Position numbers and translations under genes: made by a program. 64,000 bases of DNA. Origin: a virus (taxonomy: Duplodnaviria > Caudoviricetes). The stretch covers positions 32,001-96,000 of IMG/VR virus record IMGVR_UViG_3300028797_000006; one strand, 5' to 3'. Below the pieces are notes generated by a model, which was given only the letters and a program-made list of their open reading frames with translations, searched no databases and was not told where the DNA came from. Positions within the stretch are counted from its first letter, which is position 1, and every line of letters starts with the position of its first letter. Of the stretch, positions 22,528 through 62,679 are shown in pieces.

Positions 22528-23820
22528 TTAATGAATGTACATATTGAATAAAAGTTCAAATTGCTGCCAGTTTACGACAAACAGGTTATCTTCAGCTCTA
22601 GTTAGCGCAACATAAGCAATATTCAAATCCTCAGTACAACTAATAGTTGTATCAATAACGATTACATTCTTATATTCAAGACCTTTAGCCTGATGAATTG
22701 TCGAAGCCTCAAAGTATCCCGCATCAGTAATGTATTTAACTTGTTTGTTAGTTCTACAAAGAATCATAGGTCTATTACTCATAAACTTTTTAAACTCTTC
22801 AATCAAGTTAATTTTGTGTTCAATGCCGTTCTCCATTTTAATACTTCTACCAAATGGATTGACGACTGTTACACTACCACCAGGACCACGAGCGCAATTA
22901 ATTGCACTAGCCCTTTTTCACATAATTTCAGTGATATAGCAATCTTCTTCCATCATTGCATTTTCGCGCTGTTCAAGATAAACAGTAGTGGCATAATCAA
23001 TTATCTCTTGATAACTTCTATAATTACACATTAACTTATATTCTTCAAAGTCCTCTGTCTTATCGAATACTTCACCATCTGCACCTCTAAAACAGAAGAT
23101 TGATTGCCAAGGATCTCCAACGAAGAATTTCTTTTTAGCATTAACCTTTTGGAATAATTCAAACTGCACTTCATCGACATCTTGATATTCATCGACAAAA
23201 AGCGCATCAATATTATTTATTTCCTCGTCATAAGTATTGAGAACATTATAGAGGTAAAGAGGATAATCTGTGAAATCATAAAGTAAATTATCTCTCTTGT
23301 AACGAATATATCTGTTTTCAAGCGCCACAAGAGTTCTCTTATAATTATCCTTGATATCCATGTTCTTATTTCCGCTAATAAAAGAATAAAGAATATCAAT
23401 ATTTATATTTTTAATCTTTGAATGAATTATATAATCATCAACTAACTCTTGAAGAATTGATTTAATTTGCCCTTCTTGAAGTATTTTAATCTTAAACCCG
23501 TATTTAATTGCGAAATCATTAAGTAATGTGCGGGCTCATACGTGGATTGTAGTAACATCAACATCAAAGATACCCATTTGTTGAAGGCGAGTTTCCATTT
23601 CAGCACGGGCTGCGCGAGTATAGGTGATCGCGCAGATTCTATCATTTATGTTCTCAAAACGATAGGCTGAAACCGCACTTAATATTGAGAAAGTTTTTCC
23701 AGAGCCAGCAGGTGCGCGCACTAAAATATTATCACTCTTGGAAGTGACAACCTTATATTGTGACTCATCTAATTTATCTAATTTTAATGTAAAGTTGTTG
23801 GCTCTAGTGATTTTTTCCAT
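22528..23820 (-). CDS. UvrD/Rep-family SF1 helicase (2 in-frame TGA)
   Basis: Three same-frame track ORFs join: APAGSGKT, TIHV(W), VDEYQD, VGDPWQSIF.FRGA, NYRS, STIHQAKGLE, YVALTRA. Confidence 0.9.
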
Positions 23821-24329
23821 TCTTCTAATCTCTTTTCATAATCAGCTTCAATATCTTCAAGATGTGGATCGGTTTCAATATATTTGGATAAGAAATCGGC
23901 TGTAGCCAAAGCATTATGCATAGAAAGTTTTGAATCTTCATTTGTATACATATCAAGCATTGAAGTTAAATTGTCGTCTCCTTCAACTTTTTTCTTCATC
24001 ATTTCAACAAATTTATCTTCATATGGTAAAGATTCAACTAAGTCTTGAAAATTAACAATTAAATCAAACTTATATTTCTTAGGCATGTTGCCAATAATAA
24101 TTAAATCATTCTTTTCTTTTTCTGCTAAATCATAAACTTTTTCCGCGCTTAAAATACTGTAAAAAAGCGCGTATTCTCAATTCTTTGCTAACTTTGTAAC
24201 TATTGTATAGTCCATGAAAGAAGGCATTGAAAAGCAATTATCTTTAGCATGCGCAGTTAGTCCTTTATAGACACCTACGCCCATATATGTATTTTTTTCA
24301 TCTAAAGGCATTAAAACTAAAATCTTCAT
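23784..24329 (-). CDS. Hypothetical protein (1 TGA)
   Basis: GGAGG RBS, ATG 24329, in frame with track ORF 23784-24086. Confidence 0.65.
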
Positions 24330-28246: not shown

Positions 28247-28343
28247 TGGCACGGGTTGTAGGACTCGAACCCACACCTACCGCTTTGGACACGGAATCTT
28301 TACGGTTTTGAAGACCGCTGTGCTGCCATTACACTAAACCCGC
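28247..28343 (-). tRNA. tRNA-Trp(UCA), opal-decoding, with 27-nt variable region
   Basis: GCGGGTT/AACCCGT acceptor, G73, CCA; anticodon arm GCGGT-CTTCAAA-ACCGT; T arm GTGGG-TTCGAGT-CCTAC. Confidence 0.9.
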
Positions 28344-28388: not shown

Positions 28389-30119
28389 TTATTTTTCGAA
28401 TGATGATTTTTCTGGGAAATTAGTTTCAAAAAATTTATTTATATTAGCTCTTGTTATATCTTCTTTAATTGAAGAAACTTTTGTATCATTTAAACAGACC
28501 ATTTCTCTGTTCCTTACACAATCTCAAGGAGTATAACTATTTAATTCAAAATAATTAGATTTTTGATAAATTCTAGGTTTCTTTTTACTGACTCCTTGAT
28601 ATTTCATACTATCAATAAACAATAAAGATGGAACGACATTCTTTTTATGTCTAAAACGTGAAACTTTCATAGCATCTCAAATTTCATCCATATATTTACT
28701 CATAAAATCTATTTCATAAGATTTTAATCGTCCATCTGGTAAATGACTATAGTAAATATAGTTACTTCTTTGTCCGCAAATATTTTTTATTAAGAACTTA
28801 GTAGTATTATTTACAACAGAAGATCAAACGCCACTACCATTACCTCAATTTGCAGACATAGTTCCGGTTTCTCCATAATAAAGTGTATCACCTTCAAAGA
28901 ACATATCCCTTGGAATAGGATTCATAAAATAAAAGTCATCATTACAAACAATAAAATGATTACTTAAATCTTTAATTCTATAATAGAACGTTTCAATAAC
29001 TAATGTACTAAAAGTTGGTAAAAACTCTTCAGGGATGAATTCATCATGATACACAATTCTAAGTTTCGGACATTCTCTATTTAATCATTCAGGTAATTGA
29101 CTTTCTCTTTGAACAACTAAAAATACTTTATGTACTCAAGGACAATTTTTTTCAACACATCTAAATCAATATTTAAATACGCCTCAATCACGAGTTCTTT
29201 CAGTACCAAAAGCTTGAATATTAGAAGCATCTTGAATACCTTGATCAATTTCTAATTGTCTATATTTATTAAAATCTGCGCGTCAATTTTCATCATTAGG
29301 ATTAACTCATGGTACAATAATATCAATGTTTTCTCCGGTATTACAAGATTCTAATAAATCAATACGCTCTTCTTCAAACTGATTGAATCTCTCTAAATTA
29401 GATGGCATATTTACTCCTTGAAAATCTAAAAATTCATTAATAGATAAATTTTTATCATCAATATAAAAATCTGCATTTGGTTTACCAAATCACAATTCGT
29501 CATACTTAACGCCATTTTTATCTAATCAAGCACGTGTAATAGCATCATATTTAGCTATACGCTCTTCTATTGTTTTACAACTTTTTGCGCCACGAGCAGT
29601 AGAAAGAATAATCTTTCATCCTTGATCATGGAAACGATTAATTTGCTTAATTGTTTCAACAAGAGGATAAGAATTTTCAAAATCTCTATTTTTTGTGAGA
29701 CATAAGGTGTCATCAATATCTATACAAAGTGTGTTATATCTTTCTCTACTTTTAAGATATTCCTTTTCTTTTGTTGTGCTGATATTTGGGGTACGATCTA
29801 AAAAAACTACTTGAGCAAAAGTTTTTATACGATCAATATCATGGTATCCTTTATATTCTGAGCCACAAGCAAATATTTGGACATGTTTCAAATAACTAAA
29901 TTTATCTTCTTGTGAGTAAAGAGGCACTACTTCATCGACATATCTAATGCTTAAAAGAATTTGTTTACGTTCTTCATATGAATAAAAAGGAATTTTGCCT
30001 TCAGGATTTACATTTACACCTACAACTAAATAATCGCCTAAAGCTTTAGCTCTGCGCAATAAACTAATATGTCCGTAATGTAGAATATCAAATGTTCCTG
30101 TTGTAAATACCTTTTTCAT
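28389..30119 (-). CDS. Fusion: TagD-like cytidylyltransferase + HAD capsule-type phosphatase + Stealth-family phosphotransferase (>=12 TGA)
   Basis: GTFDILHYGH...RTPNISTT; IDIDDTL...STARG...GKP.ADFYIDDK; IDIIVP(W)V...RD(W)G...P(W)V...PE(W)LN...PTFS...NDDFYF; single frame. Confidence 0.85.
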
Positions 30120-30463
30120 TATCGACTCCTATGATATCTTTTTGGTTTTCTAGGTTTCTTTTCTTTTCTTTTATACGGGACTCAGCCTTTATTATATCCC
30201 GTTTCAATTGTATTCAACTTCTTAATCCAGTATTCCTCGCGCTCATTAAGTTTTGCTATTGGGCATAACTCAATTACATCTGCGCGAAAATTACGCCAGT
30301 CAGTCTTCCAATCTTTTTGCATATCTTTATTTGGATGATGACCCTTATAAAGTGCATTAATATGCTGTTTACATCTAAAATATACGTTCTGACTTTGCCC
30401 AACGTATATTTTATTTTTCTTAAGGTTAGTTATTTTATATATTCCAGATGTTGGAAGCGTCAT
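30119..30463 (-). CDS. GIY-YIG endonuclease (1 TGA)
   Basis: SGIYKI...YVGQS...R..QH...EREEYWI...GYN; readthrough ends in a TAATG overlap with the next gene. Confidence 0.85.
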
Positions 30464-56784: not shown

Positions 56785-57516
56785 TTACTCTATGTCCTTA
56801 TAAAGTTCGGCTTTCCAGTATTCAGTATGATATTTCATTGGCTTAAATAGCTTGAATATACAGAACTTATCCTGTTCAACCTTTACGTGATTCATTGCGA
56901 AGTAATTGTGGAATGGAACCATATAGCCTACGATGTCGTTATGGTCGTAGAAGTTGTAACACTCTTTTGTGCACTTGCTAAGATATTCTCTCATATCCGG
57001 ATCTTTGCCGGCCCAAGGTTTAACACTACCATAAGTAAATAGGTGTGCTTTAACCCCATAATTGAAGAATAAATCTTGCGCGCACAATTGAGCTATTGCT
57101 GAGCCAAGTGACCAGCCAATAATTTCAACCTCTTTTACGCCAACTTCATCTATTAAAGCCTTATATTCATCTCTAATAAGGTGTTTGAGGGCGCAGTATA
57201 GGTCTACCCATCCACGTGCTGCTTTAAGTTGGATGTCCTTCCCATCAAATTGGAACCTATCATAATAGGTATCTGGGAAGTTAAAGTTCGCCATCCATTG
57301 CGATTTTGATGATGTCTCTTTGAAATAGATTTGAATTACATCTCTTGCCTTCTCATACCATATCCAGTAGTAAGCATCATGCTTGTGACCATGACGGCAG
57401 GTGTATTCAACCTTCTTATAAGGGATATGCATGCGGGGATATCCGCCGTAGTTCCCATTTGATTGATCGGCAAAGTATTGCTCGAATCTTAGTCTTTTAT
57501 ATTCCATAATAAGCAC
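56785..57516 (-). CDS. Class 3 lipase-like alpha/beta hydrolase
   Basis: GWSLG nucleophile elbow, FTYGS, DIVG, H near C-terminus. Confidence 0.8.
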   Translation of the reverse strand: MLIMEYKRLRFEQYFADQSNGNYGGYPRMHIPYKKVEYTCRHGHKHDAYYWIWYEKARDVIQIYFKETSSKSQWMANFNFPDTYYDRFQFDGKDIQLKAARGWVDLYCALKHLIRDEYKALIDEVGVKEVEIIGWSLGSAIAQLCAQDLFFNYGVKAHLFTYGSVKPWAGKDPDMREYLSKCTKECYNFYDHNDIVGYMVPFHNYFAMNHVKVEQDKFCIFKLFKPMKYHTEYWKAELYKDIE

Positions 57517-57535
57517 CTCTTTATAGAAGTTTAGC

Positions 57536-58261
57536 TTATTTAGGTTCTCCGGTCAAGTTTTTACGCGCGATTTGCTTGTCGATTGCAATTCTATGGATAT
57601 CAGGGGTATTCTTTAATACTCCGCTAGTGACGATTTCTTTTAATGAGACAGGAGTATAGTTGATATGCTCCGCACAAATATTCATATAAAGTGAATTGTA
57701 ATCTAAATTATGTTGATGTCCATGGATATTGAAGAGAAATTCTGGTAACCATCCAATTGGCTCATGTGATAAAACGATTTTATTTGAAATTATAACTGCG
57801 CCTTCATAGACTTCATCAAAGAGATGATTATCTTCATAAACATCATCTTTTGGTTTTACAGTGCCGCACTCAGGACACCAAGCATATTCATAACCGCAGT
57901 TATAAGCAGTTAATAAATCATGATTAACTTCTCCTCCACATTTTGGGCAAGTATCTGAATTATGTTCTATTTCAGTTATCTTTCTTTTGTAATAACTTGC
58001 GCCGCGGTCATGGTTTCCTAAAATTAAAACCTTATAGCCTGCTTTTAACTTTTTGACGCGTTCAATGTCACCAACGTCTCCTAAAATAATAAGAGTATCA
58101 TTCTTGTGAACTACTGCGTTAATGCGGTTAATTTGTTCTTCATCTGTGATACCACGAATGGCATTCATTTCTGCGTCGCCAAAATGCGGATCGCTATAGA
58201 GGTAAATTGAACCTCCGCGATACCAGCGTTGCGCGAAAACATCATACAAATGTTTAATCAT
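57536..58261 (-). CDS. Calcineurin-like metallophosphoesterase with Zn-ribbon insertion
   Basis: SDPHF, LGDVG, LGNHD, SHEP, IHGHQH; CPKC...CPEC insert. Confidence 0.85.
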   Translation of the reverse strand: MIKHLYDVFAQRWYRGGSIYLYSDPHFGDAEMNAIRGITDEEQINRINAVVHKNDTLIILGDVGDIERVKKLKAGYKVLILGNHDRGASYYKRKITEIEHNSDTCPKCGGEVNHDLLTAYNCGYEYAWCPECGTVKPKDDVYEDNHLFDEVYEGAVIISNKIVLSHEPIGWLPEFLFNIHGHQHNLDYNSLYMNICAEHINYTPVSLKEIVTSGVLKNTPDIHRIAIDKQIARKNLTGEPK

Positions 58262-58279
58262 AATAAATCCTTTCTTTAA

Positions 58280-58355
58280 TGGCACCGCTAGTAGGATTTG
58301 CACCCACGTAAGACGACTTAGAAGGTCGTTGCATCATCTTCTATGCTATAGCGGT
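58280..58355 (-). tRNA. tRNA-Arg(UCU)
   Basis: Cloverleaf, loop CTTCTAA, CCA. Confidence 0.9.
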
Positions 58356-58360
58356 AAATT

Positions 58361-58435
58361 TGGCACCCTTGGTAGGAGTTGCACCCGCATCCTGAGTTTC
58401 GTAGACTCACATTCTATCTGTTGAACTACAAGGGT
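58361..58435 (-). tRNA. tRNA-Arg(ACG)
   Basis: Cloverleaf, loop CTACGAA, CCA. Confidence 0.9.
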
Positions 58436-58438
58436 AAA

Positions 58439-58529
58439 TGGCAGAGACGGTGGGATTCGAACCCACGGGCCCGTTACAGGCACACAAGATTTCAAATCTA
58501 GGCGCTTATGACCACTTGCGCACGTCTCT
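58439..58529 (-). tRNA. tRNA-Ser(UGA)
   Basis: Long variable arm, loop TTTGAAA, G73, CCA. Confidence 0.9.
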
Positions 58530-58618
58530 AGATGGTTACTCCCAACATAAACCTGATAAAGGGGTTTCACCTGGCATTCTTTTTTATCTGCTCATGACTA
58601 GTATTGAGCAAGTAGGTT

Positions 58619-58704
58619 TGGCAGAAGCGGAGAGATTCGAACTCTCGGTCCTTGCGGACTCTTGTTTTCTAGACAAGTGGTTTAAACCGCTCACCCACAC
58701 TTCT
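58619..58704 (-). tRNA. tRNA-Ser(AGA)
   Basis: CTTGT-CTAGAAA-ACAAG, variable arm, G73, CCA. Confidence 0.88.
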
Positions 58705-58875
58705 ATATTGTCATGCTAGTATCACTGCTAACGGCTAGACAGAGCCGGGTGGTTCACAAACACCATTCGCCTGCAGATCTTCGCTGTAGACCCAAGCAGT
58801 GCTTTTCGATAGACTGCCTCGCTGTCGTTTCGTTGATTAATCGGGTAGACAGCACCATACCTGTTATAAATTATT

Positions 58876-58970
58876 TGGCAGAGAACGCCGGACTTGAACC
58901 GGCACCCCGGATTACTCCGAGTACTGGCGGTTTAGCAAACCACTGCCTTACCAATTAGGCTTAGTTCTCT
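58876..58970 (-). tRNA. tRNA-Ser(GCU)
   Basis: Loop TTGCTAA, long variable arm, CCA. Confidence 0.9.
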
Positions 58971-58973
58971 ATT

Positions 58974-59049
58974 TGGTGCGCCTAGAGTGATTCGAACACT
59001 CGACTCCATAATTAAAAGTTATGTACTCTACCGGCTGAGTTATAGGCAC
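58974..59049 (-). tRNA. tRNA-Lys(UUU)
   Basis: CATAA-CTTTTAA-TTATG, CCA. Confidence 0.92.
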
Positions 59050-59239
59050 ATATGGTGGGCCTTACACCCACTCAAGAGGTATCGTAACGCGTGTCATACT
59101 TGCGAGTTTAAAGTTTTCTTTCTTATATAATAAGGAAGTAGCGGCCCCTGCCTACTTTACAATGGACTTCTTTGCGAGGCTCCGTTCTCCTTCTCATATT
59201 GGTTATTTTGAGAACTATCCATTAACCTTATAAATTAAT

Positions 59240-59315
59240 TGGTACTCCGCCTGGGACTCGAACCCAGATAACACTAATTAAGAGTTAGTTGCACGACCAG
59301 TTGTGCTAACGGAAT
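59240..59315 (-). tRNA. tRNA-Lys(CUU)
   Basis: ACTAA-CTCTTAA-TTAGT, CCA. Confidence 0.92.
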
Positions 59316-59318
59316 ATT

Positions 59319-59419
59319 TGGTGGGAATTGAGGACTCGAACCTCCACCTCTCACTTCACCGAGAGGCCTTTGTTTCACCCCGTTTTCGCAGGGCGGTGCC
59401 ACCTTGACACTTTCATCCC
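59319..59419 (-). ncRNA. Atypical tRNA-like RNA without a canonical anticodon loop
   Basis: T arm TTCGAGT and CCA end; 6-nt loop CGAAAA; extra 7-bp arm. Confidence 0.6.
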
Positions 59420-59422
59420 ATT

Positions 59423-59507
59423 TGGTACCGGAAGTGGGACTCGAACCCACACGTCTCTCGACAATTGCTTCTAAGGCAATCTTCTGTGCCAACTCGAATA
59501 TTCCGGC
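59423..59507 (-). tRNA. tRNA-Leu(UAG)
   Basis: ATTGC-CTTAGAA-GCAAT, variable arm, A73, CCA. Confidence 0.9.
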
Positions 59508-59510
59508 ATT

Positions 59511-59597
59511 TGGTGTCTAAGGTGAGACTCGAACTCACACGCCCTTTCGGACATTACCCCCTCAAAGTAAGGCGTCTACCAGTTCCGCCACTTAGAC
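59511..59597 (-). tRNA. tRNA-Leu(GAG)
   Basis: TTACT-TTGAGGG-GGTAA, variable arm, CCA. Confidence 0.88.
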
Positions 59598-59603
59598 GTT
59601 TTT

Positions 59604-59736
59604 TGGAATAGGCAGGAGTTGAACCCGCATAAAATACTTCTGTGATGACAAACAATATTCCGATAGATCTGCCCATAAGTCATCTAATTATTGGACTCGT
59701 CCCGTCAGCTCTCCCATTTGAGCTATAACTATTCCA
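59604..59736 (-). ncRNA. tRNA-like RNA with D and T arms but an ~80-nt structured insert replacing the anticodon arm
   Basis: TGGAATAG/CTATTCCA stem, GCTC-AAATGGGA-GAGC, GCGGG-TTCAACT-CCTGC. Confidence 0.6.
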
Positions 59737-59740
59737 TATA

Positions 59741-59816
59741 TGGTGGTCAGACTCAGAGTCGAACTGAGGTGCATGGTTTTTCAGACCATTGTACCAACCG
59801 TGTATACCATCTGACC
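59741..59816 (-). tRNA. tRNA-Phe(GAA)
   Basis: ATGGT-CTGAAAA-ACCAT, CCA. Confidence 0.92.
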
Positions 59817-59818
59817 AG

Positions 59819-60364
59819 TTAGATGGAATCTGCTGTAATTCCACTATTATCGCACATTCTAATAACTTTCATCATCTCGACAGGAGTATAATCCCATCTT
59901 TCTACACATAGACATGCGCCATTACGTGCGATTGTAGGGAACATGCCATGAAAGTCCTTTGCGTGCACATGACCATAGAAGTGATAGTCATATGTATCAT
60001 GTGAGTTTCCTGGACGCGCATCAGGTCTGTGTGAGAAGAAGATTTTATTCCCTGCAATTTCTTTAATGAATGAAGGTAATACTTCTTCAAAACCGCAATC
60101 AAGATAGAATTGTTTGGACTTAGTGTCGTGATTGCCGCGCACTAGAATTTTATGTCCTTTAAGTCGAGGAATGATCCACTTAAGTGAAGACTCTTGACCG
60201 AGCCCGACATCACCAAGATGAATAACAATGTCGTCATCTGTGACTACTGCATTCCATCTCTTAATCATTGCGTCATTCATTTCTTCAATAGAGCGAAATG
60301 GTCTATCTTCATATTGAATGATATTTTTATGATTGAAGTGAGTGTCGCTAATTAAATAAATCAT
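59819..60364 (-). CDS. Calcineurin-like metallophosphoesterase embedded in the tRNA array
   Basis: SDTHF, HLGDV, RGNHD, SHRP, YGHVH. Confidence 0.9.
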   Translation of the reverse strand: MIYLISDTHFNHKNIIQYEDRPFRSIEEMNDAMIKRWNAVVTDDDIVIHLGDVGLGQESSLKWIIPRLKGHKILVRGNHDTKSKQFYLDCGFEEVLPSFIKEIAGNKIFFSHRPDARPGNSHDTYDYHFYGHVHAKDFHGMFPTIARNGACLCVERWDYTPVEMMKVIRMCDNSGITADSI

Positions 60365-60387
60365 AACTTTCCTTTCTTATACAAATA

Positions 60388-60416
60388 ATTATACCAGAAC
60401 CTTTTGAGTTTGTCGA
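60388..60416 (-). promoter_or_regulatory. Possible internal promoter upstream of the phosphoesterase
   Basis: TCGACA-17-TATAAT with extended -10 TG. Confidence 0.55.
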
Positions 60417-60431
60417 TAACTTTTTTCCTTT

Positions 60432-60503
60432 TGGTCGCCGCACGTGGAGTCGAACCACGCTAAGACGCTTATGAAACGTCCGCGATCACCGGATCATACG
60501 GCG
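60432..60503 (-). tRNA. tRNA-Met(CAU) (or Ile2), short D arm
   Basis: GACGT-TTCATAA-GCGTC, CCA. Confidence 0.8.
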
Positions 60504-60505
60504 GT

Positions 60506-60582
60506 TGGCTAGGGCGGGAGGACTCGAACCTCCACAAACACGGGTTCAAGGCCCGTTGACTCTACCATTCGTCCACGCCCCA
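60506..60582 (-). tRNA. tRNA-Gln(UUG)
   Basis: U1-A72 pair, ACGGG-CCTTGAA-CCCGT, CCA. Confidence 0.9.
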
Positions 60583-60586
60583 ATGT

Positions 60587-60681
60587 TGGTACTCCCTGAG
60601 GGACTCGAACCCCCAACCAGCCAATTATCTGTTGCTATACGGGGTATAAACCCGCCGCTCTACCGGTTGAGCTAAGGGAGT
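60587..60681 (-). tRNA. tRNA-Ile(UAU) with long variable region
   Basis: GCGGG-TTTATAC-CCCGT, 24-nt variable region, A73, CCA. Confidence 0.85.
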
Positions 60682-60685
60682 ATAA

Positions 60686-60766
60686 TGGAGACACTGGCAG
60701 GATTTGCACCTGCGATGATTTACTGAGGTTGCAGCTCAGCCCCTTCGACTACTCGGGCACAGTGCC
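60686..60766 (-). tRNA. tRNA-Cys(GCA)
   Basis: CTGAG-CTGCAAC-CTCAG, U73, CCA. Confidence 0.92.
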
Positions 60767-60769
60767 AAT

Positions 60770-60804
60770 AAAAAACCGCTAGACATATTCCTATGCTAGC
60801 GGTT
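60770..60804 (-). terminator. Intrinsic terminator (putative attenuator) immediately 5' of tRNA-Cys
   Basis: AACCGCTAGCATA-GGAA-TATG(T)CTAGCGGTT-TTTT. Confidence 0.85.
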
Positions 60805-60838
60805 GTACCTGATTGTACACTGTTAGTGCCAGTGTTAA

Positions 60839-60928
60839 TTATTTGGTTTTGTTAGCATAGGAAAACTTACACTTCATAAAGCGTGAACTAAGTCTTTGTT
60901 TGGAACATATCTTTAATTCGTTGATCAT
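60839..60928 (-). CDS. 29-aa leader peptide MINELKICSKQRLSSRFMKCKFSYANKTK (putative tRNA-sensing attenuator peptide)
   Basis: AAAGGAG RBS at 60938-60944; codons match the downstream tRNA array; 3' end complementary to the terminator. Confidence 0.8.
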   Translation of the reverse strand: MINELKICSKQRLSSRFMKCKFSYANKTK

Positions 60929-61087
60929 GTTGTGTTTCTCCTTTGCTAAACGATTATAAGGTTCATTTAACCAACAGACAGTAAGCTTGTAGGGTTCTCT
61001 TTCGAGACTTTGCAGTTGGCACCTCGGGCCTCGCACCGTCCACTGACATAATGCCAGATACCTTACCTATCTTAACCTTACATTATT

Positions 61088-61116
61088 ATTATAGGATAAT
61101 TTTTCGATCCTGTCAA
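61088..61116 (-). promoter_or_regulatory. Consensus sigma70 promoter of the leader/tRNA operon
   Basis: TTGACA-17-TATAAT. Confidence 0.9.
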
Positions 61117-61128
61117 TAGAATTTTCAT

Positions 61129-61154
61129 AAAAAAATTACCGAGTTATCGGTAAT
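61129..61154 (-). terminator. Intrinsic terminator ending the large-ncRNA transcript
   Basis: ATTACCGA-TAAC-TCGGTAAT-TTTTTT. Confidence 0.85.
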
Positions 61155-61395
61155 CTCCGGGAATAGATTTTGAGTAAGGCCCCTAAGGTCACTATTCAGT
61201 GTTAACTTTTATGCAGCCGTTAACGAACAACTAGTTATCGTACTAGCGAACTAGAATGGATTTGGGACCATTCATTTACCCAAGAACATATTTACTAGCT
61301 ATCGGTAAAGGCCACTTAGTCAACCCTATTCATTCTTACTCTTATGTAGGAACTCATCCTTTACTATTATGGGGTCTATTGTTAGGCTAGTAACG

Positions 61396-62003
61396 TAACT
61401 GCCCTTTGATAATTATCTAATGCTGACCTTCGTCATACACGGCTTATTAACTGACATTATTCACACACGTTCACTAGAGTCTGAGGCAAAGGGAGCGACC
61501 CAATGACTTCTCTAATGGCATAAAGCGATCAACGGGAACAGTTTACTTTGTTCCAACTTTCACCGAGCTTCAGAGCATATTGTATATTGATCGTAACTTT
61601 CAACGTCGCGGTCAGATTTAACCTTATGTTAAAGCTTCTTCATTTGTCTTTCAGCTACTCGTACAGCCATATTCAGTTATAGGTTATTTCTAACCATCAA
61701 GACACCGGTTTCCTTTGAGTGCCGGGATATTAAGTTTCTCAGGCTTAATTCCTTAGGCGAGATGCATTACTGCAGTTGCTACTTGTCACCGCTGAATTTA
61801 GGCTTTGCTTATGCGTAGTTAACACGATGCACAACCAACTACATCCTTCACTGCTTTCCCATAGTAGGTTTACCTATAAGTTTCCCGATAGGTTTCTTAC
61901 TCACAATACAGTATCCCATATTGCTTTCATTCTGTAGCTGGCTCCAGGCGGTCCGCAAGACCATCTTCACCTGGTTGCAAAGATAATTATCAAAGAACAA
62001 TTA
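61396..62003 (-). ncRNA. Large ornate ncRNA (~610 nt, ROOL/GOLLD-like)
   Basis: No long ORF; 23-bp closing helix with G-U pairs on the minus strand; many internal hairpins; own promoter; adjacent to tRNA array. Confidence 0.7.
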
Positions 62004-62041
62004 CAACATTAAGAAGTTTATTTTTCCTTAATGGTATATGT

Positions 62042-62070
62042 ATTATAGAATTTTTCTGACGAGATGTCAA
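62042..62070 (-). promoter_or_regulatory. Consensus sigma70 promoter of the large ncRNA
   Basis: TTGACA-17-TATAAT. Confidence 0.9.
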
Positions 62071-62103
62071 GAAACTTTCCACTAATTTTTGAAGAAGTTT
62101 TTG

Positions 62104-62318
62104 GTTATAGCCCTTAGGGCAACCTTAAGGCGAACTTCTCGGAAACCTCCAGATCGTTCTAATTGGCAGTAGAACTTATTGGCTAAGACTGTTTGCTACT
62201 GTAGCCTTCCGCTTCACATTGTTTAAGCACTTGTCGCAGCCATACCGCATCTCGGAACTTTTTAGCAAATAGGTATACGCGGCCAATCTCAACCCTATTG
62301 GTAGGTCGGGGTTATAAC
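62104..62318 (-). ncRNA. Putative ~215-nt structured RNA
   Basis: GTTATAACCC/GGGCTATAAC closing stem; nested ATTGGC/GCCAAT and TTTGCTA/TAGCAAA helices. Confidence 0.5.
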
Positions 62319-62343
62319 TCCCACTTGAATAATTAAATATAAA

Positions 62344-62679
62344 TTATTTTCTCTTCTTAGTCAAGGACTTTTTGGCTTTTTCTTCAAGAATTCTCTTGAG
62401 GTTATCCTTGATATCAGCAAGGTAAACATCTTTTGCCGCACAAGTTGGAAGTAATTTATATTCATCCCATAAGTCAGAAACACAAATCTTAACACCACGT
62501 GCGTTGCAAGCAAGAGCAAATGACTCTTTATCGTGATATTTACTTAACAAACCACAAGCACCGACATCAATGCGGCCGACTTTGTCGAGACCGTGCCATA
62601 AATGTCTTTTTGGACCGTGATGTTTGCGCAAGCGTATTTTAACTGGGGCCGCTGGCTTACCCCCTCTTCGAACTGCCAT
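62344..62679 (-). CDS. Basic hypothetical protein (possible RNA binder)
   Basis: AAAGGAG RBS; Arg/Lys-rich termini. Confidence 0.6.
   Translation of the reverse strand: MAVRRGGKPAAPVKIRLRKHHGPKRHLWHGLDKVGRIDVGACGLLSKYHDKESFALACNARGVKICVSDLWDEYKLLPTCAAKDVYLADIKDNLKRILEEKAKKSLTKKRK

What the first reader, a model, noticed from the sequence alone, without database searches (positions are those of the whole stretch)
60766..61116. Codon-checklist leader peptide plus attenuator gating the phage tRNA array: a putative sensor of host tRNA depletion
Seen in sequence (minus strand), in order: a perfect TTGACA-17-TATAAT promoter, an AAAGGAG RBS, a 29-codon ORF (60928-60839), a strong intrinsic terminator (60804-60770), and 3 nt later tRNA-Cys, the first gene of the array. 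Codons 6-18 are AAG ATA TGT TCC AAA CAA AGA CTT AGT TCA CGC TTT ATG. These 13 consecutive, non-repeating codons map one-to-one to array tRNAs Lys(CUU), Ile(UAU), Cys(GCA), Ser(AGA), Lys(UUU), Gln(UUG), Arg(UCU), Leu(GAG), Ser(GCU), Ser(UGA), Arg(ACG), Phe(GAA) and Met(CAU), i.e. 13 of 14; only Leu(UAG) lacks a CTA/CTG. Codons 19-23 (AAG TGT AAG TTT TCC) stay within the set. The array reads about 25 of 61 codons, so 18 in a row is unlikely by chance (rough estimate only). Just downstream, ORF bases 60863-60853 (UUCCUAUGCUA) are exactly complementary to 60798-60788 (UAGCAUAGGAA), the 5' arm and loop of the terminator. An ACACUG/CAGUGU hairpin between them shortens the gap. Established: amino-acid operon attenuators use this geometry, but with runs of one amino acid's codons. 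Host anticodon nucleases (PrrC, PARIS AriB, VapC toxins, retron PtuAB) cut tRNAs, and phage tRNAs can rescue infection. Inference: a stall at any checklist codon frees the antiterminator and turns on the replacement tRNAs, whereas unimpeded translation masks it and transcription terminates. This would be an OR-gate, inducible counter-defence; I know of no description of it.
Basis: partly seen in the sequence, partly recalled or inferred. Interest (0 to 1): 0.97.

Follow-up and report, generated by a model that had tools for sequence, protein, structure and literature searches.

The report
Codon-matched attenuators gating phage tRNA arrays
This uncultured rumen phage puts each of its two blocks of tRNA genes behind a tiny translated "test" gene spelled with one codon for almost every tRNA in that block and wired to a switchable transcription stop, so it probably makes a tRNA block only when those codons are read slowly, a control I could not find published for tRNA genes.

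Summary
Codons 6-18 of the 29-codon ORF of the 14 array tRNAs, each once. Under the phage's own codon usage P = 1.5e-11. It is the top window in a six-frame scan of the whole 118-kb genome.

Four independent tests support the reading.
- A second leader lies outside the window, upstream of the phage's other tRNA array. It is spelled in that array's codons and is the genome-wide maximum for that set.
- The leader recurs in nine related contigs. The codon set is kept while codon order is shuffled, and leader codons follow tRNAs that moved between arrays.
- The antiterminator pairing is kept by compensatory changes, and an RBS-to-ORF-end pairing completes a trp-like four-segment design.
- Rumen metatranscriptome contigs run from the promoter to the terminator foot in two runs and bridge into tRNA-Cys in one.

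Best reading (about 0.8): ribosome-mediated leader-peptide attenuators that report decoding speed. Whether the trigger is host tRNA cleavage or ordinary supply and demand was not tested. This scan noted the same design in other phage genomes. Six full-text literature searches found no description.

The parts
61088..61116 (-). Promoter of leader A, TTGACA-17-TATAAT
   Evidence: 12 of 12 consensus matches. Conserved in relatives L040, L042 and L044. RNA contigs begin at 61068-61088.
60951..61080 (-). Long 5' UTR holding a ~125-nt insertion that is absent from close relatives
   Evidence: In the alignment with L040, L042 and L044 the relatives have only about 30 nt between the promoter and the SD. 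No Rfam match.
60931..60950 (-). Segment 1: RBS region UUUAGCAAAGGAGAAACACA (SD at 60944-60938)
   Evidence: Pairs with the ORF 3' end at -18.4 kcal/mol, against -5.2 for shuffles. The equivalent pairing in L040, L041, L042 and L044 is -20 to -24 kcal/mol, each p<0.001. It is present in the MFE and centroid folds.
60839..60928 (-). Leader ORF A, MINELKICSKQRLSSRFMKCKFSYANKTK* (29 codons)
   Evidence: An ORF of 25-29 codons with an SD sits at the same place in L040, L041, L042/43, L044 and L047/G001.
60875..60913 (-). Checklist: codons 6-18, one codon for each of 13 of the 14 array-A tRNAs
   Evidence: P = 1.5e-11; genome-wide maximum.
60851..60873 (-). Segment 2: ORF 3' end. Its core, 60863-60853, is the 5' strand of the antiterminator
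   Evidence: Perfect 11-bp match to 60798-60788. 94% of cells are paired across four relatives, with three pairs changed on both sides.
60817..60835 (-). Spacer hairpin ACACUGGCACUAACAGUGU inside the antiterminator loop
   Evidence: Relatives carry a hairpin of different sequence at the same place.
60767..60804 (-). Intrinsic terminator. Segment 3 is 60804-60788 (5' arm plus loop), segment 4 is 60787-60773, and the U-tract is 60775-60767
   Evidence: -17.5 to -18.9 kcal/mol. Outer stem is 100% paired in relatives, with two compensatory pairs. RNA contigs of two runs end at 60808.
60432..60766 (-). tRNA-Cys(GCA), Ile(UAU), Gln(UUG) and Met(CAU). No promoter lies between the terminator and these genes
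   Evidence: An RNA contig in run X3 runs 61069-60682 across the terminator.
60388..60416 (-). Internal promoter TCGACA-17-TATAAT ahead of the phosphatase gene
   Evidence: 11 of 12 matches plus a TG. It lies downstream of the first four tRNAs.
59819..60364 (-). 181-aa metallophosphatase-like ORF embedded in the array
   Evidence: Used as the anchor to find relatives.
58280..59816 (-). Rest of array A: Phe, Leu(GAG), Leu(UAG), Lys(CUU), Lys(UUU), Ser(GCU), Ser(AGA), Ser(UGA), Arg(ACG), Arg(UCU)
   Evidence: No minus-strand terminator was found inside the array.

Best explanation
Each of the phage's two tRNA arrays is headed by a ribosome-mediated (leader-peptide) transcription attenuator. The regulatory codons are one codon for nearly every tRNA species in that array.

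Leader A (in the window) works as follows.
1. Transcription starts at the consensus promoter.
2. A ribosome loads on the nascent AAAGGAG site and translates the 29-codon ORF.
3. If decoding is fast, the ribosome covers the ORF's 3' end (segment 2) while the terminator is being made. The terminator (segments 3:4) forms, and RNA polymerase stops 3 nt before tRNA-Cys.
4. If the ribosome is delayed at any of codons ~5-18, or by a sum of small delays, segment 2 stays free. It pairs with the terminator's 5' arm (2:3, 11 bp), and polymerase reads into the tRNA genes.
5. If no ribosome loads, segment 2 pairs with the RBS region (1:2) and the terminator forms, as in the trp operon.

Leader B lies outside the window and heads the other 18-tRNA array. 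It is a two-state version whose untranslated RNA folds into the antiterminator.

The products of read-through are the very tRNAs that relieve the stall. The circuit is therefore a negative feedback loop that holds each tRNA block at sufficiency and switches it on when any member runs short, whatever the cause.

Shown: the anatomy, the statistics, the covariation, the alternative folds, and the presence of the RNA.

Inferred: that the ORF is translated, that stalling changes read-through, and what the physiological trigger is.
For: 1. Codon match. Thirteen distinct array-A tRNAs are called in 13 consecutive codons, P = 1.5e-11. This is the only region of the 118-kb genome scoring above 10. TCC makes up 4% of the phage's Ser codons yet is used twice.

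2. Independent replicate. Leader B (genome 101445-101365, L031:5445-5365, minus strand) encodes MAKVLWTVAYNTIHGLDVEPLSNLVN. It has an AAAGGAG site and a terminator. It array-B tRNAs and is the top window in the genome for that set. For own array against the other array, Fisher p = 1.3e-5.

3. Relatives. G001 and G003 each have two leaders with array-specific codon content (p = 3.6e-4 and 5.6e-4).
- Gln, Pro and Ser(GCU) tRNAs sit in different arrays in different genomes, and the leader codons follow them.
- L120 has Thr(AGU) and Gly(UCC), and its leader has ACT and GGA.
- Close relatives L040, L041, L042 and L044 keep the same codon set in a different order.
- L042's leader covers 13 of 13 tRNAs, including CTG for Leu(UAG), and is the unique top window of 4,769.
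- L041 has no tRNA-Gln between Ile and Met, and its leader has no Gln codon.

4. Switch.
- Complementarity between the ORF and the terminator's 5' arm is significant in 9 of 10 leaders.
- The antiterminator is 94% paired, against 25-48% in slid controls, with three pairs changed on both sides. Two terminator columns covary with both of their partners.
- In co-transcriptional folding, the antiterminator forms before the terminator's 3' arm exists whenever the ribosome sits at codons 16 or earlier. The terminator forms when the ribosome reaches the ORF's end.
- The 1:2 pairing is conserved at -18 to -24 kcal/mol in five genomes.

5. There is no promoter between the terminator and tRNA-Cys.

6. 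RNA. In rumen metatranscriptomes, whole contigs span 61068/61088 to 60808, the foot of the terminator hairpin, in two runs. A contig in a third run spans 61069-60682 across the terminator through tRNA-Cys. ROOL contigs end in the same way at the foot of their own terminator. One run's contig carries eight differences in the 5' UTR and none in the ORF.
Against: There is no direct evidence of translation or of stall-dependent read-through.

- RNA evidence. It consists of assembled contigs only, so ends and strand are not measured. DNA carry-over and strain polymorphism near 60804 could also break contigs.
- Codon count. Each tRNA is represented by a single codon, whereas classical attenuators use runs. 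Sensitivity to mild shortage of one tRNA may therefore be low.
- Internal promoters. One at 60416-60388 and another in array B (L031:4836-4808) can feed the distal tRNAs independently.
- Imperfect covariation. L042 keeps TCC and TCT although no Ser(AGA) gene was found, several leaders contain codons of the other array, and Leu(UAG) has no codon in this leader.
- Gaps in the switch. G003B shows no significant antiterminator, and G003A's equilibrium folds always show the terminator.
- Host. It is probably a Bacillota species, because the nearest cultured polymerase relatives are SPbeta-like phages. In B. subtilis RNA polymerase can outrun ribosomes. Even so, ribosome-mediated transcription attenuation is documented there, for example for bmrCD (PMC4191407).
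Confidence: 0.8

Rival explanations
1. The switch is real, but its biological role is specifically the one the first reader proposed. It would be an inducible counter-defence that fires when host anticodon nucleases (PrrC-, PARIS-, VapC- or retron-type) or infection-induced tRNA decay remove a host tRNA, so that nuclease-resistant phage tRNAs are made on demand. This is a sub-case of the best explanation and differs only in the trigger.
For: Single, non-repeated codons respond best to near-total loss of a tRNA, not to mild shortage (inference from attenuation theory, PMC1183508). The checklist includes common codons (AAA, TTT, CAA, ATG) that an intact host should read fast, so the arrays would be off unless something removes those tRNAs. 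Phage tRNAs as an answer to tRNA-targeting defences is an established idea (PMC10264068). Stalling at small ORFs after toxin cleavage of tRNA-Cys is reported in M. tuberculosis (Barth et al. 2021, cited in PMC10264068).
Against: Nothing in the sequence points to a nuclease. The host and its defences are unknown. The phage carries a complete tRNA set and reads TGA as sense in many genes, which fits general translational autonomy as well as it fits defence evasion. Product feedback alone explains the design.
Confidence: 0.3
2. The small ORFs encode functional micro-proteins that end in ordinary, somewhat leaky terminators. The tRNA genes are transcribed by constitutive read-through and internal promoters. 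The codon match is a by-product.
For: The ORFs have strong RBSs and are conserved in position and length. Internal promoters exist. Small ORFs are common in phage tRNA regions, as in T5.
Against: The peptide sequence is not conserved: the same codons appear in a different order in L042 and L044. The two leaders of one genome have complementary compositions that mirror their own arrays. The ORF's 3' end is kept complementary to both the RBS region and the terminator arm by compensatory changes. A micro-protein would not require any of this.
Confidence: 0.06
3. This is an RNA-only element. The conserved alternative helices would respond to something other than a translating ribosome, such as direct tRNA binding in the manner of a T-box, a protein, or RNA processing. 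The open reading frame would be incidental.
For: Three mutually exclusive helices are conserved. Leader B's untranslated RNA already folds into the antiterminator.
Against: No T-box or other Rfam family was found. The start codon, the SD spacing and an open frame of 25-29 codons are kept in every relative. The codon-level match to tRNAs exists only in the translated frame (six-frame scan).
Confidence: 0.08
4. Chance resemblance in an AT-rich intergenic region.
For: The pattern was noticed post hoc by a reader who was looking for patterns.
Against: P = 1.5e-11 per window, with 1.7e-6 expected genome-wide. The pattern is replicated at the second array and in nine related contigs.
Confidence: 0.01

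Closest known systems
Leader-peptide transcription attenuators of enterobacterial amino-acid operons (trp, his, leu, thr, pheA, and the multivalent ilvGMEDA leader)
   Same: Both have a promoter-proximal short ORF with its own RBS and regulatory codons tied to the operon's product. Both have an intrinsic terminator before the first structural gene. In both, mutually exclusive 1:2, 2:3 and 3:4 helices are selected by ribosome position, and the terminator is thermodynamically stronger than the antiterminator, so the choice is kinetic.
   Different: The regulated genes here are tRNAs, not enzymes. The regulatory codons are one each for up to 13-14 different tRNA species and 9 or more amino acids, rather than runs for one to three amino acids. 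Segment 1 is the RBS itself rather than part of the ORF. The element is phage-borne and present once per tRNA array. Leader B lacks a 1:2 helix.
pheST (phenylalanyl-tRNA synthetase) attenuator of E. coli
   Same: A gene of the translation apparatus is controlled by leader-peptide attenuation that senses charged tRNA (own knowledge).
   Different: It senses a single amino acid and regulates a synthetase rather than tRNA genes.
T-box riboswitches of Bacillota
   Same: A transcription terminator/antiterminator choice reports tRNA status in the probable host phylum.
   Different: The T-box binds one uncharged tRNA directly, without a ribosome, through a specifier codon and a conserved T-box motif. 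No T-box match was found here, and the signal here exists only in a translated frame.
Cysteine-rich small-ORF attenuators of mycobacteria engaged by the tRNA-Cys-cleaving toxin VapC4 (Barth et al. 2021, as cited in PMC10264068)
   Same: Loss of a tRNA is read out as ribosome stalling on a small upstream ORF that controls downstream genes.
   Different: It senses one amino acid, is a host stress regulon, and its outputs are not tRNAs.
Codon-matched leader attenuators noted earlier by this scan in other phage genomes (e1-5381190, e1-5322966, e1-5836933, e1-5668512 and others)
   Same: The same design is described: each tRNA block follows a small ORF written in that block's codons, with a switchable terminator.
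   Different: Those are other, mostly giant phages, and the notes are unchecked AI notes that I did not test. New here are the ROOL-associated ~118-kb rumen phage clade, the shuffled-order evidence from close relatives, the RBS-sequestering segment 1, and the metatranscriptome contigs.

Membership tests
Ribosome-mediated (leader-peptide) transcription attenuator | Short ORF with its own RBS between the promoter and the first structural gene | tested here: met
   AAAGGAG lies 9 nt before the ATG, and the ORF has 29 codons. The same is true in nine related contigs.
Ribosome-mediated (leader-peptide) transcription attenuator | Regulatory codons in the leader correspond to the product of the regulated genes | tested here: met
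   13 of 14 array tRNAs are called once each, P = 1.5e-11. Own array against other array gives Fisher p of 1.3e-5, 3.6e-4 and 5.6e-4 in three genomes.
Ribosome-mediated (leader-peptide) transcription attenuator | Intrinsic terminator between the leader ORF and the structural genes, with no intervening promoter | tested here: met
   A hairpin of -17.5 to -18.9 kcal/mol plus U6 ends 3 nt before tRNA-Cys. No promoter lies between them.
Ribosome-mediated (leader-peptide) transcription attenuator | An antiterminator that excludes the terminator and whose 5' strand is masked by a ribosome finishing the ORF | tested here: met
   There is an 11-bp perfect pairing. Masked-ribosome folds show the switch. 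Covariation appears in relatives.
Ribosome-mediated (leader-peptide) transcription attenuator | An anti-antiterminator (1:2) that gives termination when the leader is not translated | tested here: met
   Leader A has a pairing between the RBS region and the ORF 3' end of -18 to -24 kcal/mol in five genomes, and it is present in the MFE and centroid folds. Leader B does not have it.
Ribosome-mediated (leader-peptide) transcription attenuator | Read-through depends on translation of the leader and rises when the ribosome stalls at the regulatory codons | not testable with these tools
   Only indirect evidence exists: RNA contigs fit both terminated and read-through transcripts.
T-box riboswitch | Specifier loop plus the conserved T-box sequence that binds the tRNA acceptor end | tested here: not met
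   No T-box match appeared among 4,227 Rfam families at E<=1 on 57500-62500, or at E<=0.1 on the array-B locus.

The most novel reading that the evidence does not exclude
Phages with large tRNA complements run a per-array translational self-test. Each half of a complete tRNA set is switched on independently whenever any one of its tRNA species becomes limiting. The natural trigger would be host tRNA-targeting immunity or infection-induced tRNA decay. That would make these leaders the first known inducible sensors of tRNA depletion that control tRNA genes, and natural multi-input OR gates for decoding capacity.
Probability: 0.3. Interest if true: 0.92.

Novelty: new variant of a known kind. Interest (0 to 1): 0.86.

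Why it matters
Why phages carry tRNAs has been debated for fifty years, with codon compensation, host tRNA decay and escape from anticodon nucleases as the main ideas. How those genes are regulated has hardly been addressed. A leader that lists the array's own tRNAs shows what the phage itself monitors: the decoding speed of exactly those codons.

This makes the debate testable. One can ask which depletion (nuclease, shut-off or codon demand) opens the switch.

It also extends classical attenuation from amino-acid supply to tRNA supply. It provides compact natural parts that report the availability of a dozen tRNAs at once. Finally, it gives annotators a rule for recognising small ORFs upstream of tRNA arrays as regulatory rather than as 'hypothetical proteins'.

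Tried and rejected
- T5 (NC_005859) and the T5-like Vibrio phage Pontus. Their tRNA regions have small ORFs but no codon-matched, terminator-coupled leaders. The only similarity to the window is one tRNA-Ile gene, so the phage is not T5-like.
- The 327-aa ORF upstream of leader B, used as an anchor, found no relatives in IMG/VR.
- The 65-aa Cys-rich ORF, used as an anchor, gave 80 loci, but only L120 had a tRNA array.
- Other phosphatase loci (L002-L029, L045-L119) yielded no further leaders beyond L047 and L003.
- blastn of the ROOL gene against cultured phages found no match, so I found no lab-tractable relative.
- Rfam found no known cis-regulatory family in either leader. A weak HDV-like ribozyme hit in G001's 5' UTR (E = 0.17) was treated as chance.
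- Equilibrium folding of full-length leader A always gives the terminator. The switch shows only in co-transcriptional prefixes, as is also true of trp.
- G003B has no significant antiterminator, and G003A's logic is unclear.
- A column-based count of the 1:2 helix was abandoned because MAFFT misaligned the SD of L044. Duplex energies against shuffles were used instead.
- The metatranscriptome data are contigs only. Parts without cover, and depths, were not used as evidence.
- The attempt to learn which amino acid TGA encodes failed. The search against G001-G003 found nothing, and the PDB alignments did not cover the TGA positions.
- Six full-text literature searches found no description of leader-peptide control of tRNA genes.
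Full report
**What is there.**

| Feature | Coordinates | Note |
|---|---|---|
| Promoter TTGACA-17-TATAAT | 61116-61088 | 12/12 |
| 5' UTR | about 150 nt | |
| AAAGGAG | 60944-60938 | |
| ORF, 29 codons | 60928-60839 | MINELKICSKQRLSSRFMKCKFSYANKTK |
| Small hairpin | 60835-60817 | |
| Intrinsic terminator | 60804-60767 | 13-bp stem, GGAA loop, U6; -17.5 to -18.9 kcal/mol |
| tRNA-Cys | starts 60766 | first of 14 tRNA genes running down to 58280 |

A ROOL RNA (Rfam, 222 bits) with its own consensus promoter and terminator lies just upstream.

**Is the checklist more than chance?**

I mapped each codon to the array tRNA that reads it, Watson-Crick first and then standard wobble.
- Codons 6-18 different tRNAs of the 14, each once. 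Codons 19-23 stay in the set.
- Under the phage's own codon usage, array-A tRNAs read 33% of codons. The exact probability that 13 consecutive codons hit 13 different array-A tRNAs is 1.5e-11. That gives 1.7e-6 expected over all 108,663 stop-free six-frame windows of the genome.
- Empirically, every window scoring 11 or more lies in this ORF, and the rest of the genome never exceeds 10.
- TCC is only 4% of the phage's serine codons, yet it occurs twice in the leader. It is the one serine codon that the neighbouring Ser(UGA) and Ser(GCU) tRNAs should not read.

The genome has a second array of 18 tRNA genes at genome 101098-98051, outside the window. It includes a non-canonical tRNA-Tyr(GUA) and an initiator-like tRNA(CAU) that default ARAGORN missed. 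Together the two arrays cover all 20 amino acids and split them almost cleanly.

Upstream of array B I found the same module:
- a 12/12 promoter;
- AAAGGAG;
- a 26-codon ORF, MAKVLWTVAYNTIHGLDVEPLSNLVN, at genome 101445-101365 (L031:5445-5365);
- a terminator at L031:5337-5316.

This ORF's codons array-B tRNAs, and it is the top-scoring window in the whole genome for the array-B set. Leader A uses array-A codons and leader B uses array-B codons (19:6 against 3:20, Fisher p = 1.3e-5).

**Relatives.**

A phosphatase gene embedded in array A served as the anchor.
- Two distant complete relatives, G001 and G003 (56-61% identity), each have two arrays, a ROOL RNA and two small ORF-plus-terminator modules. 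In both, the leaders are enriched for their own array's codons (p = 3.6e-4 and 5.6e-4).
- The partition of tRNAs between arrays differs among genomes, and the leaders follow. Gln tRNAs are in array A here (leader A has CAA) but in G003's other array, whose leader has three Gln codons while G003's A-type leader has none. Pro and Thr tRNAs sit in G003's A-type array, and its leader has Pro and Thr codons. Ser(GCU) is in G001's B-type array, whose leader uses AGY for four of five serines.
- L120, a fourth relative of leader B, has Thr(AGU) and Gly(UCC) genes and has ACT and GGA in its leader.

The most telling evidence comes from close relatives found in metagenomes: L040, L041, L042/43 and L044, at 73-83% identity.
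- Their leaders are 25-27 codons long. They contain the same codons (ATA, TGT, TCC, AAA/AAG, CAA, AGA, CTT, AGT, TCA, CGC, TTT, ATG). In L042 and L044 the order is different, so the peptide is not conserved but the codon set is.
- L042's leader also has CTG and covers 13 of 13 credible tRNAs. It is the unique top window of 4,769.
- L041 has no tRNA-Gln between Ile and Met, and its leader has TCT where the others have CAA.
- One counter-example exists: L042 keeps TCC and TCT although I found no Ser(AGA) gene there.

**The switch.**

*The 2:3 pairing.* The 11-nt segment 60863-60853 in the ORF's 3' end is perfectly complementary to 60798-60788, the terminator's 5' arm and loop.

*Leader A folding.* I masked a ribosome stalled at an early or middle codon and folded growing transcripts. 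The antiterminator (-22.9 kcal/mol with the enclosed hairpin) is the minimum-energy fold until the terminator's 3' arm appears. Once the RNA is complete, the terminator is favoured by a few kcal/mol. This is the same energetic relation as in the trp leader, so the choice must be kinetic.

*Leader B folding.* The antiterminator (14 bp) is the minimum-energy fold of the full RNA whenever the ribosome's A site is at codon 16 or earlier. The terminator forms only when the ribosome reaches codon 19 or the stop.

*Conservation of the ORF-to-terminator complementarity.*
- It is significant against shuffles in 9 of 10 leaders examined.
- In an alignment of four close relatives, the antiterminator is 94% paired, against 25-48% when the partner is slid. 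Three pairs are changed on both sides, and the terminator's outer stem has two more.
- Two columns of the terminator's 5' arm covary with both partners. That is the signature of alternative structures.

The RBS region (60950-60931) pairs with the ORF's 3' end (60873-60851) at -18.4 kcal/mol. The equivalent pairing is -20 to -24 kcal/mol in L040, L041, L042 and L044, each p<0.001 against shuffles and with different sequences. It is present in the minimum-energy and centroid folds of the whole leader.

Leader A is therefore a four-segment attenuator of the trp type in which segment 1 is the ribosome-binding site. Without a ribosome, 1:2 and 3:4 form and transcription stops.
- I infer that sequestering the RBS once segment 2 is made restricts translation to a ribosome that loads on the nascent RNA. 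That would help keep the ribosome and polymerase in step.
- It also explains why codons 19-26 are conserved as nucleotides. They are structural rather than part of the checklist.

**Expression.**

The leader region is held by bovine rumen metagenomes and by several rumen metatranscriptome runs. Only assembled contigs could be laid.
- In two RNA runs from different studies, whole contigs of 264 and 283 nt run from 61068 or 61088 (the predicted start) to 60808, four bases before the terminator stem.
- In a third run, a 390-nt contig runs from 61069 across the terminator to 60682, the end of tRNA-Cys.
- The highly covered ROOL contigs end in the same manner, two to four bases before their own terminator hairpin (61153-61157). 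This serves as an internal comparison.
- A DNA run bridges 60808.
- One RNA run's contig carries eight differences from the window in the 5' UTR and none in the ORF or switch.

This fits both terminated and read-through transcripts, but it is weak evidence. Contigs do not measure ends or strand, and a polymorphism at 60804 could break assemblies.

**How it most likely works, and what remains open.**

The anatomy, statistics and covariation support leader-peptide attenuation that reads out decoding speed at the codons served by the downstream tRNAs. The output is those tRNAs, so the circuit is a negative feedback loop. It acts as an OR gate for read-through, or more exactly as a sum of delays over about 13 codons.

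Whether the natural trigger is host anticodon nucleases, host tRNA decay after shut-off, or simple codon demand cannot be told from sequence.
- Single codons favour detection of severe loss.
- The presence of common codons means an intact host pool should keep the arrays off.
- On the other side, the phage carries a full tRNA set and reads TGA as sense in many genes (see below). That fits general translational autonomy.

Two caveats apply. Internal promoters (60416-60388; L031:4836-4808) mean the attenuators strictly gate only the promoter-proximal tRNAs and modulate the rest. The host is probably a Bacillota species, because the nearest cultured relatives of the polymerase are SPbeta-like phages at 36% identity, and transcription-translation coupling can be loose there.

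**Comparison with what is known.**

The mechanism class is classical (trp, his, leu, thr, ilv, pheA, pheST). All the defining features that sequence can test are met.

Three things differ: the regulated product (tRNA genes), the one-codon-per-tRNA checklist spanning nine or more amino acids, and the use of the RBS as segment 1. It is not a T-box (no match).

ROOL RNAs are already known to lie near phage tRNA islands (PMC12286853). T5 and a T5-like Vibrio phage lack such leaders.

Six full-text searches of about 8.4 million papers and preprints found no description of leader-peptide control of tRNA genes. That is not proof that none exists.

This scan has noted the same design in at least eight other, mostly giant, phage genomes. 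I did not test those notes.

**Verdict.**

The mechanistic reading is supported at about 0.8. The counter-defence purpose remains open at about 0.3. I class it as a new variant of a known kind of regulation, of high interest.

Noticed in passing
genome 3.7-33.5 kb and many window genes, e.g. window 28392-30128 (-) and 22531-23913 (-); tRNA at window 28247-28343 (-): TGA appears to be a sense codon in many genes. Frames of 1748 aa (23 in-frame TGA) and 1604 aa (6 TGA) open only if TGA is read. A cytidylyltransferase-Stealth protein keeps its Pfam domains in one frame across 13 TGAs, and a UvrD-like helicase does so across 2. The replication genes (genome 38-54 kb) have none. A 97-nt tRNA(UCA) with a long variable arm and its own promoter is the likely suppressor. 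The amino acid was not determined.
   Followed up: partly
window 61404-61998 (-), transcript to about 61130: ROOL RNA (222 bits) has its own 12/12 promoter (62070-62042) and a terminator hairpin (61153-61136). Rumen metatranscriptome contigs cover 61968-61153 at depths up to about 1000, roughly 100 times the leader. The transcript therefore extends about 250 nt past the Rfam model. ROOL also sits upstream of the A-type leader in G001 and G003.
   Followed up: partly
window about 60951-61075 (-): A ~125-nt insertion lies between the promoter and the SD. It is absent from close relatives L040, L042 and L044, whose 5' UTR is only about 30 nt. It is predicted to be structured, has no Rfam match, and is variable between strains. 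Leader B has a ~410-nt 5' UTR containing a hairpin (CCACGCAAGGAUGUGG) that is conserved in L120.
   Followed up: partly
window 60587-60681 (-): tRNA-Ile(UAU) is 95 nt long, with a 20-nt insertion in the variable region. It is 83% identical to annotated tRNA-Ile genes of T5-like Vibrio phages, which is the only DNA similarity of this region to any cultured phage.
   Followed up: no
window 58619-58704 (-); G001 and L120 arrays: These phages carry unusual A34 tRNAs: Ser(AGA) here, and Leu(AAG), Thr(AGU) and Pro(AGG) in relatives. The leaders use the C-ending codon for Ser(AGA) and Arg(ACG), which implies inosine or broad reading at position 34.
   Followed up: no
L031:5014-5098 (-) and L031:4386-4457 (-): Array B begins with a non-canonical 85-nt tRNA-Tyr(GUA), found only with relaxed ARAGORN and scoring 26 bits in Rfam. 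It also contains a tRNA(CAU) with a C1xA72 mismatch, an initiator hallmark. G003 has further odd tRNA-like genes directly after its B-type leader's terminator.
   Followed up: partly
L031:5101-5298 (-): A 65-aa Cys-rich ORF (CPC...CMC...CQC) sits between leader B's terminator and array B. Relatives at 50-72% identity occur in 80 or more IMG/VR phage contigs, nearly all without a tRNA array nearby.
   Followed up: partly
window 60938-60947 and 60788-60798 (-): The RBS region (UAGCAAAGGAG) and the terminator's 5' arm and loop (UAGCAUAGGAA) are near-repeats. This is why the ORF's 3' end can pair with either one.
   Followed up: yes
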